Shown one piece after another: positions 3,094 through 9,573 of a stretch of DNA of 9,573 bases. The stretch comes from a virus (taxonomy: Duplodnaviria > Heunggongvirae > Uroviricota > Caudoviricetes). The stretch's first letter is position 1, and the number at the start of each line of letters is the position of its first letter. A program made the position numbers and the translations under genes. The stretch covers positions 1 to 9,573 of IMG/VR virus record IMGVR_UViG_2617270962_000004; one strand, 5' to 3'. Under the pieces are notes generated by a model. It was given only the letters and a program-made list of their open reading frames with translations, was not told the DNA's origin and did no database searches.

Positions 3094-4026
3094 TCACACC
3101 TGTGAGAGTAATTCAGGGTTGGTATAAACCTCTTTAAAGGCCGCATTAATATGTTTTTCTGTCAGCGCCGCGCCTTCACCACTGGCGGTGATCCATGCCT
3201 GGTTAAGCGTATGTGTCAGAACGCGTAACGCTCCCGGCTTTTCAGCGATAGCCTGCATGACGGCCAGCTCGGCCTCACCACTGATCCCCCACGCCATGGC
3301 AATGGCCAGCACATCCGCCTTTTTGGCCTTGCGAAGTTGTTTTGTACGGGCAAGACGGCTGAACAGGCGCGATAAATCATCAAAGGCGCGGCGTCCACCT
3401 TTAAACAATCCGCGCGGGTTACCAATAAGCACCATCCCGATCCCCGTGGCGTCCTGGATTGCCCGGAGTTGCTCCAGACCGTCAATACCAAGATGATCCG
3501 CCTCATCCACAATCACCAGTCCACGCGTTCCCATCAGGCGACGGCGGATGGCGCGGGATAATGCCCCTTTGTTCGCGCGGGTGTAATCAATCCCCAGCGC
3601 ATCGGCCAGCTCCAGCAGACACTCCGTGACGCTGGAGTGCGCGGGTGACAGGGTGATCATCCAGGTGTTTGGTTGCTCCTGGCAGTAATTACGGGCAGTG
3701 GCCGTTTTACCCACACCCGGTACGCCCACAATAACGTTAATACAGCCCATCAGGCGAACCGCCTGAAACAGTGCGCGCAGCTCCTGGACTGTCTGAGTTT
3801 CCACAAACTGCGGCGGTTCCGGCAGTGCGCTTTGTTTATTCCAGTTCTCATACCAGGAGCGCAGGGAAGCAGCCACAGCAGCGTTATCGCCTTTATATTT
3901 TCCCTTACGGAAAGCCGATAATGTGCCGTCGGAAATCCCCGCCTCTCTGGCGATGGCATACTGCGTCAGTACGCCGCCATCAATAAGTTCATCAATGGTC
4001 TTGATTACATCGTTAATATCGGTCAT
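3094..4026 (-). CDS. B: MuB-like ATP-dependent target DNA activator (AAA+ ATPase)
   Basis: Translation contains a Walker A motif (VGVPGVGKTATARNY) and a Walker B-like motif (LVIVDEADHL). It aligns along its length with my recollection of phage Mu B (for example LPEPPQFVETQTV, KPGALRVL). Size 310-313 aa versus 312 for MuB. I prefer the ATG at 4026 (RBS GAGGTG 8 nt upstream) over the GTG at 4035 used by the ORF track. Confidence 0.9.
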   Translation of the reverse strand: MTDINDVIKTIDELIDGGVLTQYAIAREAGISDGTLSAFRKGKYKGDNAAVAASLRSWYENWNKQSALPEPPQFVETQTVQELRALFQAVRLMGCINVIVGVPGVGKTATARNYCQEQPNTWMITLSPAHSSVTECLLELADALGIDYTRANKGALSRAIRRRLMGTRGLVIVDEADHLGIDGLEQLRAIQDATGIGMVLIGNPRGLFKGGRRAFDDLSRLFSRLARTKQLRKAKKADVLAIAMAWGISGEAELAVMQAIAEKPGALRVLTHTLNQAWITASGEGAALTEKHINAAFKEVYTNPELLSQV

Positions 4027-4108
4027 ATTATTCACCTCGCTTGAGACAGCATTCTCCGAGACTGAAACCTCAAATAACCTGAGTCACCCCTCGGGTTATT
4101 TTTTTATT

Positions 4109-6199
4109 TCAGGCCAGCGGATCACTTTCTTTTAATTTCGCTTCGAGCAGTTGCAATCCCCGCTGGAAATTACGCTCGTATTCTTCATCAGGTTCATCGT
4201 CAGCGACAGGTTGCTGAACGGTCACCGTATTACCCACAGGGCGGTAGATGTTTTCCAGCCAGGGCTCCTGCGGCTTGTGCTCCAGCACGTTGACAACCTC
4301 ATCCTCGGCATCACGGATTTTTTCCTCTGCGCGTTTACGCATACCTTTAAGGCGCTGCTGCTGTTTGTAGTATTCCGCGCTGACAGGGAAGGCTTCGCGT
4401 TTATTGCCGTCCCATACCGCCTCGCAAATCACGCTGCCATCCGGGCGGCGCACGGTAATTCGTTCGGCATCATGAATGTCATAGCTGATAAGTACCTTAC
4501 GGCCATGCTCGTCACGCAGCTCGGGCGCGTAGTAAATATTATTCAGCCAGCGTATTTCACAGCGTCTTACAGGGCGCTCCACCATCGGCCGGAACATATC
4601 CCGCAGTTCAACATCGGACAGCCATTCAATTTCCGTGTCCTCTTCCGCCAGGCGTTTTTTTCTGAACTCCGCCGGGCTGTAATGTTTACCGTTCGGCTTC
4701 ATGGGTAATTCATCGTGCGGCCGGTTGTTGTACCACTCAACACCGTCACGAATGGCATCAATCAGTTCAGACCAGGACGGTAAATCACGCATCGCTGACT
4801 GCTGCCGGGCGTTCAGCCGTTTGCCCTGTTGCAGGGCACTGAATGCCGAGCGTAAATCGCGGTTGGTTTTACGTAACGTCTCGCGATCTGCTCCTTTCCC
4901 GAAATAGGTGCGGTATTTACGGGCTATGCGCATCGGTAATGTGCGGTTAAGCCGTTCGATAATGCCCCGTCCCTGCGGATTACCGGCAATCCCTGTCGGG
5001 TGATTAATCCCCAGTCGTGGCAGTATCCCCACAATCTCCTTATCCAGGACGTCGGCGGTTTCCCCGGAGCCATTATCCGAGTAATACAGAAACGGTTTGC
5101 CATGATGGCGAATACCGTGCTGTATGGCACCGGCTACGGCGAAAACATTTTCAGCCAGGTCAAGGCTCCAGCCCACCACAAAGCGCGTGCCACCGTCGAT
5201 AACAAAGGTCACTTCCGGTGCGAATGGCCGCCCGTGAACCGGGTGCGCGCATTTCAGCTTCATGCCGTGACCGTCACCAATCCAGACATAATTCACCGGC
5301 ATTTTTGACCAGTCGCGGCGCGTGAATCCCTCAAGCTGGCGGTATTCACTGCCAGTTACCCGGCCTTTTTGTTTCACCACTTCCGGCAGTTTCTTCATTG
5401 CGCGGCGAATGGTGTCATAAGAGGGCATGATATCGAGCATATAAGGCTCATCAGCGTGCCGGTGCTGCCATTCAGCAACAAAATCCTCGTAAGCCTCGGT
5501 CATTGGTCGGCCGTTTGACTGGCGATACTGCGCCAGAAATTCGGGCAGCCAGTTAATATCTTCGGCTTTTATTTCCTGGCGTTTACCCGGTGCCAGTAAA
5601 AGCAGGCGTTCAGCGGCGTTCTGTGCCTTGTTAAAGGCCGCAATCCAGCGTTTCAGCGTGATTTCACTCAACGCACGGCTGTTTCCCTTTTTGGCGTTCG
5701 CCGTCTCAACCATTGCCACAATGCGCTCGTCCAGTTGCGAACGTGCCAGGTTGTCAACGATAAACCGGATAGCCTTCGCACAGCTGAAACCAGGTTGTTG
5801 CGCGACTTTCAGAACTTCGCTGACGATCGCGATTCGTGCATCAGCCACCTGGCGCTGGTTTTCAGTCAGGGCATTGAGGCGTTCGAGCATCAGTTGTGGT
5901 GATCCGCGATATGCCTCCACCGCATCAACCACGGCAGATGAGCGTCTGGCCTTTGTCACCACCGGAGCCGGTGATTCATCAGCTTTTTGCGTCATCAGTT
6001 GAAGGGCATAACGTTCACGCAATACTTGTTGCGCGCCAGAAGGCAAACAATCGATATTAAATTCGATTGCTTTTGTCCCCTTACGTTTGCGTAACATGGC
6101 TGCATTTCCCGCAGCTGCTTTTGTGAGTCGATGGCGAATGTTATGTTCCATCATTGGTAAATCAGGAAGACCAACACATTCTTTTGCTGTTACCCACAT
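4109..6199 (-). CDS. A: MuA-like DDE transposase (transposable-phage transposase A)
   Basis: 696-aa ORF. The N-terminus MWVTAKECVGLPDLP...GTKAIEFNIDCLP resembles the MuA N-terminal DNA-binding domain (Mu: MELWVSPKECANLPGLP...GKAIEY). Size (Mu A is 663 aa) and position between ner-like and B-like genes fit. RBS GGGGGA lies 4-5 nt upstream of the ATG. Confidence 0.92.
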   Translation of the reverse strand: MWVTAKECVGLPDLPMMEHNIRHRLTKAAAGNAAMLRKRKGTKAIEFNIDCLPSGAQQVLRERYALQLMTQKADESPAPVVTKARRSSAVVDAVEAYRGSPQLMLERLNALTENQRQVADARIAIVSEVLKVAQQPGFSCAKAIRFIVDNLARSQLDERIVAMVETANAKKGNSRALSEITLKRWIAAFNKAQNAAERLLLLAPGKRQEIKAEDINWLPEFLAQYRQSNGRPMTEAYEDFVAEWQHRHADEPYMLDIMPSYDTIRRAMKKLPEVVKQKGRVTGSEYRQLEGFTRRDWSKMPVNYVWIGDGHGMKLKCAHPVHGRPFAPEVTFVIDGGTRFVVGWSLDLAENVFAVAGAIQHGIRHHGKPFLYYSDNGSGETADVLDKEIVGILPRLGINHPTGIAGNPQGRGIIERLNRTLPMRIARKYRTYFGKGADRETLRKTNRDLRSAFSALQQGKRLNARQQSAMRDLPSWSELIDAIRDGVEWYNNRPHDELPMKPNGKHYSPAEFRKKRLAEEDTEIEWLSDVELRDMFRPMVERPVRRCEIRWLNNIYYAPELRDEHGRKVLISYDIHDAERITVRRPDGSVICEAVWDGNKREAFPVSAEYYKQQQRLKGMRKRAEEKIRDAEDEVVNVLEHKPQEPWLENIYRPVGNTVTVQQPVADDEPDEEYERNFQRGLQLLEAKLKESDPLA

Positions 6200-6209
6200 A
6201 CATCCCCCA

Positions 6210-6476
6210 TCAAGCCACTTCTCTGGCGTCCACCTGGTATCTGCTGGGCCAGATTACAGCAGGTTCAACCCCTATTTTTTCGGCGATGGCGGCTTCGTAT
6301 TTACGGCACTGGCGGTAAAACACATTGCGCATTGATCCGCTTTTTAATCCTAACTCCCTTTCCAGTTCAGGGAGGTCTGTGCCTTTGTTTTCAAGGGCTG
6401 CATATACCGCTTTAGCAGACCAGTCACACCCCTCTCGAACAAACAAATTATTCGATGCTTGTCTGGATACCCTCAT
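6210..6476 (-). CDS. ner: Ner-like DNA-binding regulator (Ner/Nlp family)
   Basis: The C-terminal motif PAVIWPSRYQ matches the conserved end of Mu Ner and E. coli Nlp (PEVIWPSRY). It is the first gene of the early operon, directly upstream of the transposase. Confidence 0.8.
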   Translation of the reverse strand: MRVSRQASNNLFVREGCDWSAKAVYAALENKGTDLPELERELGLKSGSMRNVFYRQCRKYEAAIAEKIGVEPAVIWPSRYQVDAREVA

Positions 6477-6632
6477 TGTGTGATCCTCTCATGTTTACCT
6501 GAACCGATAATCAAAACCGGTTATCGATTTAGGTAAATCATAATCGCAAAATAATTCGATATCAACGGTTTTTTGCGAGCATATCGAAATTAAATGCGAT
6601 GTCGATAATTTCTTTGTTTTATAGGGGGTTAT
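6477..6632. promoter_or_regulatory. divergent promoter/operator region between the ner-like gene and the repressor gene
   Basis: 156-bp AT-rich intergenic region between divergently transcribed genes. It holds at least five copies of the hexamer TCGATA / TATCGA in alternating orientation (about 6505, 6522, 6556, 6582, 6602) and the palindrome AACCGGTT (6515-6522). Exact -35/-10 elements could not be assigned confidently by eye. Confidence 0.6.
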
Positions 6633-7244
6633 ATGGATAAGGCAGAAAAAACCGTATCCAGTGCGGAACGGTTTATTGATATGGAAGGAATAAACCGATT
6701 TTCAGAACGCTTAGCTATGGCTATGGGAAACATGACAAACGTCGAACTGGCGACCCTTTGTGGACTATCTGAAGCCACAGTAAGAAATTACAGGAAGGGG
6801 AAAAACTTCCCTCCTTTGGATAAACTGGCCTTAATAGCTAAAGCCTGTAATTGTTCACTCGACTGGTTGGCCACAGGCAAGAACGAAGATGAATGCGGAA
6901 AAATCGGAAAAAATTGCGATTCAGGTTCGGGTATTGATCAGGCGCTTAGCTCTCTAAGCCCCCAAGAGAAGCAATTAATCCTTACATTCATCAGGCGAGA
7001 AGGTACTAACAACCTTGTCAGGCTGGCAGCAATGAATACATCTACAATCAGCCAGGATGCGGTAGAAAGCATCATTGATGCCTTGCCATTACGTCCCGTA
7101 CTAAAAAATGCAATAAAGATAGGAATGGCGGGAAGTGAAGAAACAGACAAAGAGATTTTGCGCGTTATTGAGAAGTACAACTCGAGCAATAACGCCACCC
7201 AGGAATCAGGGGCAGTGACAGTAAAGAAAAATGTTGTTGGTTAA
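6633..7244 (+). CDS. prophage repressor, HTH XRE (Cro/C1)-type, 203 aa, functional analogue of Mu c
   Basis: Strong RBS AGGGGG 5 nt upstream of the ATG. Residues about 36-80 (NVELATLCGLSEATVRNYRKGKNFPPLDKLALIAKACNCSLDWLATG) form a typical XRE-family helix-turn-helix. It is transcribed divergently from ner/A/B towards the prophage end, as c is in Mu. I see no LexA-like S24 peptidase motif. Confidence 0.75.
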   Translation: MDKAEKTVSSAERFIDMEGINRFSERLAMAMGNMTNVELATLCGLSEATVRNYRKGKNFPPLDKLALIAKACNCSLDWLATGKNEDECGKIGKNCDSGSGIDQALSSLSPQEKQLILTFIRREGTNNLVRLAAMNTSTISQDAVESIIDALPLRPVLKNAIKIGMAGSEETDKEILRVIEKYNSSNNATQESGAVTVKKNVVG

Positions 7245-7416
7245 GCGCCATCGCTATCATGAGGTGGTGCTGTAAATACATATAGAGATCATATGACTCA
7301 TCCCAAGATAATCACGCTATTGAATAGTAATTCATGATGATTATCATACTGATTATAGTTAGATCGATTATGTGAGCATTTTGGCAGTTTGAAGATGTTT
7401 TGAAGAAGATTTTAAG

Positions 7417-7600
7417 GGTAAATTAGCAGTATCAAATGTGCCGCCGTTTTTTGATCTTTTGACTATTTGTTGAGCAGTCGGTATCAAAAAGAGTTTTCCG
7501 TCCGAAGTATACATCACCTGTTTTATTTCAGCATCTTACAGGTGATTTCACCTCCTTTCACTAAAACCCTTGTCGGTATCAAATGATTCACCTGGTTACA
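7417..7600. repeat. prophage terminus (attL-like) with three direct repeats of a putative transposase end-binding motif
   Basis: Direct repeats AGTATCAAATG (7428-7438), GGTATCAAAAA (7480-7490) and GGTATCAAATG (7575-7585). The element ends ...GGTTACA at 7600, so the other strand reads 5'-TGTAACC..., the 5'-TG terminus typical of Mu-like elements. The exact end is uncertain by a few bp. Confidence 0.55.
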
Positions 7601-8930
7601 CCCATGCGTCTTGATCGACAGAAGTTTTATAATGTGCATCGTTATAATCTACGATGCTGTCCGCGCTGTACGCTTTGCTGGCCTGGAAACCATCCGCAAC
7701 AATGACGCCGCCGTTATCAATTTCACAGGTAGTCGGGTTACCGTACTGACTCAATTCCGCAGCGGTAGCTGTACGCTCGAGACGCCATGGGTTATTGGAG
7801 TTTTCAGCGCTGGTACCCCGTGGGCAATCTTTAGACCCAACCCACCAGGCGTTCTTGTAAACATTACCATTGAAAATAACATGGTAAATTTCGCTACCTT
7901 CCTGGCCGCTCCACGCTTGCAATGAGTAATCGTTAACGCTATCCGCTGGTGTTGATGGCTCGCTGTTATCCGGAGTTGGGGTCACCGGTGTTTCCGGAGT
8001 TGGATCAACCGGAGTCACAGCACCGCCATTATTATCCGGCTTAACGGAACAGGAGCCAGGGTTACCATACTGGCTGATTTCTGTTGCCGTTGCCGCGCGA
8101 ACATAACGCCATGGGTTACTGGCATCGTTTTCTTTCGCATCGCCTGGGCAATTTGCCGCGCCTACCCACCAGGCGTTCTTATAAATGCCGCCGTTATAGA
8201 TAACGTACCATGTAGAAGAACCTTCCTGACCTTTCCAGGCTACTACAGCATAGTTGTCGTTTGACTTATCAGCTGGGGCTGGCTGAACATCAGGAGCCGG
8301 TTTAACGTCCGGTGCCGGTTTCACATCCGGTGAAGGCTGTGGTGCTGAAGTACAGGACTGTGGATTACTGGTTTCTGAGATTTCCGTTGCCGTAGCGGCA
8401 CGAACATAACGCCATGGGTTGCTGGCATCATTGCTTTTCGCATCACCCGGACAGTTAGAAGAGGCTACCCACCAGGCATTTTTATATACCGCACCATTAA
8501 AGACGACATACCAGGTCTGACCGCCCTGCTGTTTATTCCAGGCAACTACAGAAGAATTAGACGGAACAGTGCCCTGTGCTGGTGTAGCCGAACCGCCATT
8601 AGCCGGCGTATTGGATGCAGGCGTATTTGAATTTGAAGAAGATGAGCTGCCGCTCTTTTCGCAGGAAAGTGTATTGCCAAACTGACTAATTTCAGCAGCT
8701 GTTGCGGTACGCTTTAAACGCCACGGGTTAGTTGCATCATTTGCTTTCGCTTTTCCCGGGCAATTTGTAGAAGAAACCCACCAGGCATTTTCATAAATTT
8801 TGCCATCGAAAATAACCTGATATTTATTACCACCTTGTTGGTTATTCCATGCTTCCATTGCCAATGCTGGCAGAGCGGAACACACCAGCCCCATACCAAT
8901 CATAGATTTAGTAAATATATTTAATTTCAT
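7596..8930 (-). CDS. chiA: periplasmic endochitinase ChiA, 5' fragment (signal peptide plus four chitin-binding modules, 444 codons), truncated by the prophage insertion
   Basis: N-terminus MKLNIFTKSMIGMGLVCSALPALA is a signal peptide. Four about 65-aa modules repeat with the pattern AW...Y.V.FNG..Y.NAWWV...CPG...NPWR...TA.EIS, separated by S/T/P-rich linkers. RBS AAGGGA precedes the ATG. The last codon (GTG) and the TAA stop are supplied by the prophage end. E. coli ChiA is about 897 aa as I recall, so the catalytic domain is missing here. Confidence 0.85.
   Translation of the reverse strand: MKLNIFTKSMIGMGLVCSALPALAMEAWNNQQGGNKYQVIFDGKIYENAWWVSSTNCPGKAKANDATNPWRLKRTATAAEISQFGNTLSCEKSGSSSSSNSNTPASNTPANGGSATPAQGTVPSNSSVVAWNKQQGGQTWYVVFNGAVYKNAWWVASSNCPGDAKSNDASNPWRYVRAATATEISETSNPQSCTSAPQPSPDVKPAPDVKPAPDVQPAPADKSNDNYAVVAWKGQEGSSTWYVIYNGGIYKNAWWVGAANCPGDAKENDASNPWRYVRAATATEISQYGNPGSCSVKPDNNGGAVTPVDPTPETPVTPTPDNSEPSTPADSVNDYSLQAWSGQEGSEIYHVIFNGNVYKNAWWVGSKDCPRGTSAENSNNPWRLERTATAAELSQYGNPTTCEIDNGGVIVADGFQASKAYSADSIVDYNDAHYKTSVDQDAWV
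8277..8330 (-). repeat. in-frame 18-bp tandem repeat (3 units) encoding the linker PDVKPA PDVKPA PDVQPA within chiA
   Basis: Minus-strand units CCGGATGTGAAACCGGCA / CCGGACGTTAAACCGGCT / CCTGATGTTCAGCCAGCC, read directly from the sequence. Confidence 0.5.
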
Positions 8931-9170
8931 TATAATCCCTTGTGACGTAAAAACTGCAAAACAAAAGTCCTACGCAGGAATTATTTACGTTTTACGAGAA
9001 CCCTTCAATATGAATTAAAGTGCGGCATTAAAAATAAGAAAAAAGCCTGACAAATGAAGAATTTTAAAAACAGAAACATTCATATTTAAAATGTTAAATT
9101 GAATTGATATTTTAAATATGAATAATTTATTCGTTCTGACAGTACGAATAAGATATGCCGTCAACAAATG
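8931..9170 (-). promoter_or_regulatory. AT-rich chiA upstream region (promoter region, elements not individually assigned)
   Basis: 240-bp strongly AT-rich stretch between the tufA terminator and the chiA start. Contains a perfect 8-bp inverted repeat TTATTCGT-N9-ACGAATAA (9127-9151). Confidence 0.35.
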
Positions 9171-9197
9171 CAAAAAGGGCGCCGAAGCGCCCTTTTC
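9171..9197 (-). terminator. Rho-independent terminator of tufA (structurally bidirectional)
   Basis: CAAAAA-GGGCGC-CGAA-GCGCCC-TTTTC: a perfect 6-bp GC stem with a 4-nt loop. On the minus strand the stem is followed by TTTTTG, 25 nt after the tufA stop; the A-run on one side and T-run on the other allow termination in either direction. Confidence 0.8.
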
Positions 9198-9221
9198 AAT
9201 TCAAAACTAATTAACGTGTAA

Positions 9222-9573
<352 letters not shown>

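What the first reader, a model, noticed from the sequence alone, without database searches (positions are those of the whole stretch)
7417..7600. Prophage end carries three direct repeats of a GTATCAAA core that differ from the Mu end-site consensus as I recall it
Three same-orientation copies (7428-7438, 7480-7490, 7575-7585), the outermost about 15-25 bp from the terminus, look like L1/L2/L3-type transposase binding sites. The core does not obviously match the MuA end-binding consensus as I remember it, suggesting a distinct transposase/end specificity within the Mu-like family.
Basis: seen in the sequence. Interest (0 to 1): 0.55.

Follow-up and report, generated by a model that had tools for sequence, protein, structure and literature searches.

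The report
Transposase binding sites at Sp18-like prophage end
The three GTATCAAA repeats are real and are most likely the left-end docking sites for the transposase of an Sp18-type Mu-like prophage inserted in the E. coli chiA gene, an ordinary feature of a known phage family that reads a different DNA word from phage Mu.

Summary
GTATCAAA occurs at 7429-7436, 7481-7488 and 7576-7583, against 0.38 copies expected per window. The prophage/host junction lies exactly at 7600|7601; beyond it are interrupted chiA and tuf.

Complete close relatives, including Sakai Sp18, carry the motif almost only at the ends: 18, 113 and 165 bp from the left terminus, and inverted at 18, 40 and 75 bp from the right terminus. 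Each also has one internal copy.

A weight matrix built from the six Mu sites does not score these ends above shuffled sequence. The transposase is only 23% identical to MuA, although its N-terminus folds like MuA domains I-alpha and I-beta.

A sister lineage has the same site layout but a different word, TCAAGATA. Its transposase diverges specifically at residues 121-200. Prophages with unrelated repressors keep both TTTGATAC and those residues. The repeats are therefore transposase (A-protein) end sites with non-Mu specificity. No binding was tested.

A 2008 paper already credits Sp18 with six putative transposase sites, so the finding itself is known.

By-products: this family makes 4-bp target duplications, not 5-bp. 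Its right terminus ends in TA-3', not CA-3', and some members have TA at both ends.

The parts
7573..7583 (-). L1 core: TTTGATACCGA read inward from the terminus, 18-28 bp from the left end
   Evidence: Invariant in 5 aligned left ends. Same position in Sp18 and in a Salmonella relative.
7478..7488 (-). L2 core: TTTGATACCGA, 113-123 bp from the terminus
   Evidence: An invariant island within diverged flanks.
7428..7436 (-). L3 core: TTTGATACT, 165-173 bp from the terminus
   Evidence: An invariant island within diverged flanks.
7594..7600 (-). Left terminus of the prophage: 5'-TGTAACC on the - strand, ...GGTTACA-3' on the + strand. The last prophage base is 7600.
   Evidence: Host homology starts at 7601. 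Homology to the Mu-like inserts ends at 7600/7601. Five other insertions have variable bases immediately outside TGTAACC.
7601..7604 (.). Predicted copy of the 4-bp target duplication (CCCA on the + strand). The second copy would lie at the unseen right junction.
   Evidence: Inferred from the 4-bp duplications in 7 related insertions, 3 of them verified against empty sites. Not verifiable within the window.
7511..7600 (.). Terminal 90 bp, conserved at about 97% across many E. coli insertions. It holds L1 and the L1-L2 spacer, which carries the palindrome ATCACCTGT-N16-ACAGGTGAT (7513-7546) and GGTGAA(A)TCA repeats.
   Evidence: The spacer repeats occur only at the left end. Their function was not tested.
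4109..6199 (-). Transposase (A protein), 696-aa ORF. Candidate catalytic residues are D309, D375 and E415. Model domains: 1-70 (I-alpha-like), 93-205 (I-beta-like), 215-280.
5600..5839 (-). Codons 121-200 of the transposase, the segment that co-varies with the end motif and is the candidate specificity determinant
   Evidence: 90-99% identical among TTTGATAC-type phages and 41-42% identical in TCAAGATA-type phages whose catalytic core is 81-89% identical.
3094..4035 (-). MuB-like AAA+ target-capture ATPase
   Evidence: Pfam Phage-MuB_C and AAA_22.
6210..6476 (-). Ner-like early regulator (HTH_35)
6633..7244 (+). CI-type repressor (HTH_3 / Phage_CI_repr). About 25% identical to the repressors of other prophages that carry the same end motif.
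7601..8930 (-). 5' part of host chiA, interrupted by the prophage. The ORF 7596-8930 takes its stop codon (TAA, 7596-7598) from the prophage end.

Best explanation
The three repeats are the left-end (attL-type) binding sites L1, L2 and L3 for the prophage's own transposase, encoded at 4109-6199. By analogy with phage Mu, transposase monomers would bind these sites and three inverted copies at the right end, and pair the two ends. They would then nick at the terminal A-3' (base 7600 here) and join the ends to target DNA delivered by the MuB-like ATPase (3094-4035). The stagger here is 4 bp. Recognition is through an N-terminal domain that has the MuA fold but a different sequence, so the DNA word read is TTTGATAC(C/T) rather than Mu's ...TTTCA...CGAAA. 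What is shown: the motif, its exclusive end location, its inverted symmetry, its conservation, its co-variation with transposase residues 121-200, the termini and the 4-bp duplications. What is inferred: physical binding, which domain reads which bases, and the roles of the individual sites.
For: (1) The motif is enriched: 4 copies against 0.38 expected.

(2) In four complete 38-39 kb relatives, TTTGATAC occurs at 18/113/165 from the left end and inverted at 18/40/75 from the right end. Apart from these there is one internal copy in each, and a second in one of the four. Sakai Sp18 and LC727881 have the same end positions.

(3) The first site is at the same distance from both termini. R1 and R2 are exactly 22 bp apart, as Mu R1 and R2 are.

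(4) Phylogenetic footprint. L2 and L3 cores are invariant islands within diverged flanks. The same word at 18/113/165 survives in a Salmonella relative with a different spacer. It also survives, at Mu-like 106/40 spacing, in an E. coli relative whose spacer resembles Mu's.

(5) Co-variation. A lineage with a 74%-identical transposase has TCAAGATA instead, at three left and three inverted right positions. Its R1-R2 (22 bp), R2-R3 (35 bp) and L2-L3 (52 bp) spacings are identical to the window's family.

(6) The motif tracks transposase residues 121-200, not the repressor (about 25% identical among same-motif phages) and not residues 1-80 (55-59%).

(7) The AlphaFold model of residues 1-304 has as its best PDB matches the Mu transpososome 4FCY, MuA I-alpha 1TNS and MuA I-beta 2EZK.

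(8) The family is mobile. The end sequence occurs at many different loci in 233 of 5426 E. coli genomes, and exact empty sites were recovered.
Against: There are no binding or transposition data for this element. The Foldseek E-values are weak (0.02-2), and the relative domain orientation in the model is uncertain (pTM 0.43). The right end of this particular insertion is not in the window, so its symmetry is inferred from relatives that are 94-99.7% identical. One extra TTTGATACCGA copy lies inside the major head gene of the relatives, so the word alone does not define a functional site. Co-variation rests on two motif classes only.
Confidence: 0.85

Rival explanations
1. The repeats are operators or binding sites for another phage regulator, such as the repressor encoded next to them (6633-7244), Ner, or a packaging protein recognising pac.
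For: The sites lie just downstream of the repressor gene. In Mu, by my recollection, pac lies near the left end. The terminal 90 bp also carries left-end-only repeats.
Against: The motif is present at both ends in inverted symmetry at the same distance from the termini, whereas pac is needed at one end only. Prophages whose repressors are only about 25% identical keep the same word. The operator region 6477-6632 uses different TATCGA-type repeats and has no GTATCAAA.
Confidence: 0.06
2. The repeats are sites for a host nucleoid protein (IHF, HU or Fis type) that bends the end during transpososome assembly.
For: Mu transposition uses HU in the L1-L2 spacer and IHF at the enhancer (established knowledge; PMC3145075 for the general requirements). 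The region is AT-rich, 37% GC.
Against: Two lineages living in the same host species use different words (TTTGATAC and TCAAGATA) at the same positions. A host factor site would not switch together with the phage transposase. The word matches neither the IHF nor the Fis consensus as I recall them.
Confidence: 0.04
3. The repeats are a chance or historical duplication in AT-rich non-coding DNA and have no function.
For: The 8-mers are short, and a fourth copy in tuf and an internal copy in the head gene show that such words arise without an end function.
Against: No shuffle of 200 reached the observed count. The cores keep exact positions across lineages with diverged flanks. They are mirrored at the right end and are replaced in a coordinated way in the sister lineage.
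Confidence: 0.02

Closest known systems
Prophage Sp18 of E. coli O157:H7 Sakai and Sp18-like transposable prophages of STEC
   Same: The termini are the same (TGTAACC...GCGCTATA). TTTGATAC sites are at L 18/113/165 and R 18/40/75, and the target duplication is 4 bp. The window is 94.8% identical to Sp18-like inserts over the segments that align (PMC10132054). The gene order is the same: repressor, ner, A, B.
   Different: This copy is inserted in chiA. No insertion at this locus was found among 5426 complete E. coli genomes. Its immunity region differs: the repressor is about 25% identical and transposase residues 1-80 are 55-59% identical.
Phage Mu attL/attR (MuA sites L1-L3, R1-R3)
   Same: There are three sites per end. 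L1 lies near the terminus, then a long spacer, then L2 and L3. R1 and R2 are 22 bp apart. The transposase has I-alpha and I-beta-like folds plus the Mu-transpos_C domain, and a MuB-like partner is adjacent (PMC3145075).
   Different: The recognition word differs: the Mu matrix scores no better than on shuffled sequence. All three right-end sites share one orientation, whereas Mu R3 is inverted. The core lies about 5-6 bp further from the terminus. The duplication is 4 bp, not 5 bp. The right end terminates in TA-3'. The transposase is 23% identical and has no DDE_2 or I-gamma Pfam hit.
TCAAGATA-type sister lineage (E. coli VL40, Shigella SFBU1023; loci L010-L012, L016, L017)
   Same: The architecture and right-end spacings are identical, the duplication is 4 bp, and the transposase core is 81-89% identical.
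   Different: The word is different, both ends are TA, L1-L2 is 71 bp instead of 95 bp, and transposase residues 121-200 are only 41-42% identical.
Leptospira TA-TA transposable prophages (PMC8705779)
   Same: The terminal dinucleotides are non-canonical TA, and the transposase is MuA-like by structure prediction.
   Different: Those prophages make 6-bp duplications and lack the enhancer-binding domain. That paper left open whether TA-TA ends exist in other bacteria. Here they are seen in E. coli.
Putative end sites of other transposable phages (KS10; Pseudomonas D3112/B3-like)
   Same: These are imperfect direct repeats near both ends, proposed as transposase sites from sequence alone.
   Different: The words, numbers and spacings differ. 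KS10 has four sites and no flanking duplication.

Membership tests
Sp18-like Mu-like prophages of E. coli | Nucleotide similarity and shared termini with Sp18 | tested here: met
   The terminal sequence and site positions are identical, and identity to Sp18-like inserts is 94.8% over the aligned segments.
Sp18-like Mu-like prophages of E. coli | Insertion at many unrelated loci with a short target duplication, indicating transposition | tested here: met
   233 genomes, many loci; 4-bp duplications, with exact empty sites recovered.
Sp18-like Mu-like prophages of E. coli | Six putative transposase sites, three at each end | tested here: met
   The left three are in the window. The right three are in relatives. 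Literature statement in PMC2628397.
Phage Mu ends (MuA att sites) | Match to the MuA 22-bp site consensus | tested here: not met
   The best score is 6.2 bits, against a shuffled-maximum mean of 6.5 and 15-26 bits for Mu's own sites.
Phage Mu ends (MuA att sites) | 5'-TG...CA-3' termini | tested here: not met
   The left end is TG (TA in some relatives). The right end is ...TA-3' in all relatives examined.
Phage Mu ends (MuA att sites) | 5-bp target site duplication | tested here: not met
   The duplication is 4 bp in 7 insertions. Three empty-site reconstructions match 120/120.
Phage Mu ends (MuA att sites) | Three sites per end, L1 separated from L2/L3 by a long spacer, and R1/R2 abutting at 22 bp | tested here: met
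MuA transposase family (Pfam DDE_2 + HTH_Tnp_Mu_1 + HTH_Tnp_Mu_2 + Mu-transpos_C) | Pfam domain set of MuA | tested here: inconclusive
   HTH_Tnp_Mu_1 (24.7 bits, just above the cutoff) and Mu-transpos_C are present. DDE_2 and HTH_Tnp_Mu_2 are absent at E<=1e-3. Identity to MuA is 23%. The best fold matches are nevertheless 4FCY, 1TNS and 2EZK.
rve (retroviral-integrase-type) transposable-phage transposases (BcepMu/B3/D3112 group) | rve catalytic core | tested here: inconclusive
   There is no Pfam rve hit at E<=1e-3. However, phmmer against the PDB finds only retroviral integrase cores (E about 2e-4, residues 363-425), and a 56%-identical homologue carries precomputed PF00665.
Any transposase end-site family | Physical binding of the transposase to the repeats | not testable with these tools
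   Requires EMSA, footprinting or ChIP.

The most novel reading that the evidence does not exclude
Sp18-type phages form a mechanistically distinct branch of transposable phages. Their transposase cuts the target with a 4-bp stagger, accepts TA-3' as well as CA-3' termini, and places its first site about 5 bp further in than MuA. It has also been naturally re-targeted from TTTGATAC to TCAAGATA by replacement of about 80 residues in the I-beta-like domain while the rest of the enzyme was kept. That would give ready-made orthogonal transposase/end pairs and a natural experiment on how end recognition is encoded.
Probability: 0.45. Interest if true: 0.45.

Novelty: already known. Interest (0 to 1): 0.27.

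Why it matters
For the finding itself, little changes. It correctly marks the end of a transposable prophage and its recognition sites, which helps to delimit Sp18-like prophages precisely in STEC genomes. RefSeq's Sp18 boundaries are off by a few bases.

The side results are of moderate specialist interest. They give a clean natural case of end-site and DNA-binding-domain co-variation in a MuA-like transposase. They show a 4-bp stagger where reviews quote 5 or 6 bp for transposable phages. They also provide E. coli examples of the TA-TA ends that a 2021 paper asked about.

Tried and rejected
- The genome-contig scan with the transposase returned only two loci. They proved useful as the second motif class, but gave no wider phylogeny.
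- Accession NZ_CP178302 is not in the E. coli collection. I used VL40 instead.
- Morgan et al. 2002, the likely primary source for the Sp18 sites, is not held. I could not compare my sites with theirs.
- The Haemophilus ducreyi homologue locus L022 showed no clear three-site motif and may be a remnant; I dropped it.
- Aligning the sites to the Mu consensus by eye suggested a shared TGAaTCAtTTGA half-site in L1. The matrix test showed this is no better than chance, so I do not claim homology of the words.
- Rfam found nothing in the window.
- The promoter and terminator scan of 6400-7650 was not enriched over shuffles.
- I considered a 5-bp duplication with the phage's terminal A belonging to the target. 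I rejected it because the corresponding flank bases differ: C, C, C, C, T and T.

Full report
**Observation.** The 8-mer GTATCAAA occurs on the + strand at 7429-7436, 7481-7488 and 7576-7583. A fourth copy on the - strand at 9558-9565 lies inside tuf. Dinucleotide-preserving shuffles give 0.38 copies per window, and none of 200 shuffles reached four. Two copies extend to the 12-mer GTCGGTATCAAA, and two extend to GTATCAAATG.

**Where the element ends.** Window 7601-9573 is 100% identical to uninterrupted chiA-tuf DNA of many E. coli genomes. Window 1-7600/7601 matches "Bacteriophage Mu-like phage" inserts annotated in two Stx phages, LC727881 and LC727895. The last prophage base is therefore 7600, and the outermost repeat ends 17 bp from it.

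The window's - strand reads like the left (c) end of Mu. In order it carries the terminus, the three repeats, a CI-type repressor (6633-7244, +), a Ner-like gene (6210-6476, -), the transposase (4109-6199, -) and a MuB-like ATPase (3094-4035, -). The host ORF 7596-8930 is the 5' part of chiA, and its stop codon is supplied by the phage end.

I retrieved complete relatives.
- OkiPb01692, inserted in glrR, has a left end 99.7% identical to the window's.
- JE86-ST05 is inserted in flgK, and CI5 in yfcU.
- Z1836 is inserted within another prophage.
- I also used the LC727881 insert and Sakai Sp18.

Read inward from each terminus, TTTGATAC (the reverse complement of GTATCAAA) lies at 18, 113 and 165 bp from the left end and at 18, 40 and 75 bp from the right end. 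In the four 38-39 kb genomes scanned whole, each has one further copy, inside the major head gene; Z1836 has a second internal copy. The motif is thus inverted at the opposite end, at the same distance from both termini, and R1 and R2 are exactly 22 bp apart.

**Conservation.**
- About 200 E. coli genomes share only the terminal 90 bp with the window. Further in, the lineages diverge.
- In an alignment of five left ends, TTTGATACCGA (L2) and TTTGATACT (L3) are invariant islands.
- A Salmonella relative (N-terminal 65% identical) has the same word at 18/113/165 with a different spacer.
- An E. coli relative (53% identical) has the word at spacings of 106 and 40 bp, in a left end whose spacer resembles Mu's own.

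**Co-variation.** A lineage whose transposase is 74% identical (loci L010-L012, L016, L017) has no TTTGATAC. It has TCAAGATA instead, three times at the left end and three times inverted at the right end. Its R1-R2 (22 bp), R2-R3 (35 bp) and L2-L3 (52 bp) spacings match those of the window's family.

Regional identity shows what the word tracks.
- TTTGATAC-type prophages with unrelated repressors (about 25% identical) and divergent transposase residues 1-80 (55-59%) keep residues 121-200 at 90-99%.
- The TCAAGATA type has residues 121-200 at 41-42%, while residues 201-696 are 81-89% identical.
- More distant TTTGATAC-type enzymes keep the segment NAKKG..R.LS.I.LKRW, which is replaced in the TCAAGATA type.

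This argues against the repressor, a packaging protein or a host factor as the reader of the motif. It points to the transposase.

**Relation to Mu.** The transposase is 23% identical to MuA. Pfam finds HTH_Tnp_Mu_1 (weakly) and Mu-transpos_C, but neither DDE_2 nor the I-gamma model. Sequence search of the PDB finds only retroviral integrase cores.

An AlphaFold model of residues 1-304 (mean pLDDT 75.7) has three helical domains. Its only high-probability Foldseek matches are the Mu transpososome 4FCY, MuA I-alpha (1TNS) and MuA I-beta (2EZK). So the fold and domain order are MuA-like, while the sequence and the DNA word are not.

A weight matrix from the six Mu sites, taken from the Mu genome, gives 6.2 bits at best on the window end. 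The shuffled-maximum mean is 6.5, and Mu's own sites score 15-26 bits. The layout parallels Mu: L1, a long spacer, L2 and L3, and abutting R1/R2. There are two differences. All right-end sites share one orientation, whereas Mu R3 is inverted. The cores also lie about 5-6 bp further from the terminus.

**Termini and target duplication (by-product).** Seven insertions give termini 5'-TGTAACC...GCGCTATA-3' and 4-bp direct repeats: CGTA, ATCA, CGTG, CACC, CATC and TAAA, plus TTCA in the sister lineage. Empty sites rebuilt on the 4-bp assumption match intact glrR, flgK and vgrG at 120/120. The GenBank records LC727881 and LC727895 also annotate 4-bp duplications.

The right end terminates in TA-3'. 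Some TTTGATAC-type prophages begin with TATAACC, and the sister lineage is 5'-TATGAC...CTTTA-3', that is, TA at both ends. A 2021 paper quotes 5 bp for Mu and 6 bp for B3, and asks whether TA-TA prophages exist outside Leptospira (PMC8705779).

**Novelty.** The prophage belongs to the Sp18 family, which is known to be transposable and widespread in STEC (PMC10132054, PMC7430833). [quoted passage not shown] The primary source is not held. The finding is therefore a correct rediscovery of a known, though experimentally untested, feature. I rate the element as already known and its interest as low to moderate. The 4-bp stagger, the TA termini and the natural motif and domain switch are the parts a specialist might want to follow up.

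**Mechanism proposed, by analogy with Mu** (PMC3145075). Transposase monomers bind L1-L3 and R1-R3 through the I-beta/I-gamma-like region. The ends are synapsed, possibly with help from the enhancer/operator region at 6477-6632, which has its own TATCGA-type repeats. The 3' terminal A at 7600 and its counterpart at the right end are nicked and joined 4 bp apart to target DNA captured by the MuB-like ATPase. Only the sequence anatomy, the termini and the duplications are shown here; binding and chemistry are inferred.

Noticed in passing
window 7600|7601; relatives L005, L007, L008, L009, L012, L018/L019: This phage family makes 4-bp target duplications, not Mu's 5 bp. Its right end terminates in TA-3' rather than CA-3'. 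Some members (L014, L015 and the TCAAGATA lineage) have TA at the left end as well.
   Followed up: yes
window 7513-7546 and 7547-7597: Repeats found only at the left end, inside the highly conserved terminal 90 bp: the palindrome ATCACCTGT-N16-ACAGGTGAT and GGTGAA(A)TCA copies. They are absent from the right end. They could be a pac site or a host-factor site in the L1-L2 spacer.
   Followed up: partly
L005 about 20714 (prophage coordinate 20214); the same in L007, L008 and L009: One internal TTTGATACCGA copy lies near the centre of each related genome, inside the major head gene gpT. An 11-mer match in 39 kb has roughly a 2% chance expectation. Mu has a central gyrase site, but no link was tested.
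   Followed up: no
window 7596-8930 (-): The host chiA (bifunctional chitinase/lysozyme) gene is disrupted. The truncated 444-aa ORF ends at a TAA supplied by the prophage end. No complete E. coli genome in the collection carries an insertion at this locus.
   Followed up: partly
L021 1640-1830 (E. coli GCA_900448635.1): This left end looks like a hybrid. The spacer (AAAACCGGGAGAACATT...) and the L1-L2-L3 spacing (106/40) resemble Mu's own, but the repeated word is TTTGATAC and the transposase is Sp18-like. This suggests modular exchange of end sites.
   Followed up: partly
window 6477-6632: The divergent-promoter and operator region between ner and the repressor gene carries several TATCGA/ATCGATA-type inverted repeats unrelated to the end motif. 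These are candidate operators or a transposition enhancer.
   Followed up: no
L005 39470-39530 (right end of relatives): The R3 site sits between the arms of an inverted repeat (GCGCCGAT...ATCGGCG followed by a T-run) just downstream of mom, so it may overlap a terminator-like hairpin.
   Followed up: no
L005 18409-18488; L007, L008 and L009 equivalents: RefSeq annotates a 'tRNA-OTHER' gene between the head morphogenesis and virion morphogenesis genes of these prophages. It lies outside the window.
   Followed up: no
NC_002695.2 Sp18 feature 5040971-5079729: The annotated Sp18 boundaries differ by 1 bp (left) and 5 bp (right) from the termini deduced here (5040970-5079724).
   Followed up: partly
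window 9558-9565 (-): A fourth GTATCAAA copy lies inside the tuf coding sequence. It is taken as a chance occurrence.
   Followed up: yes
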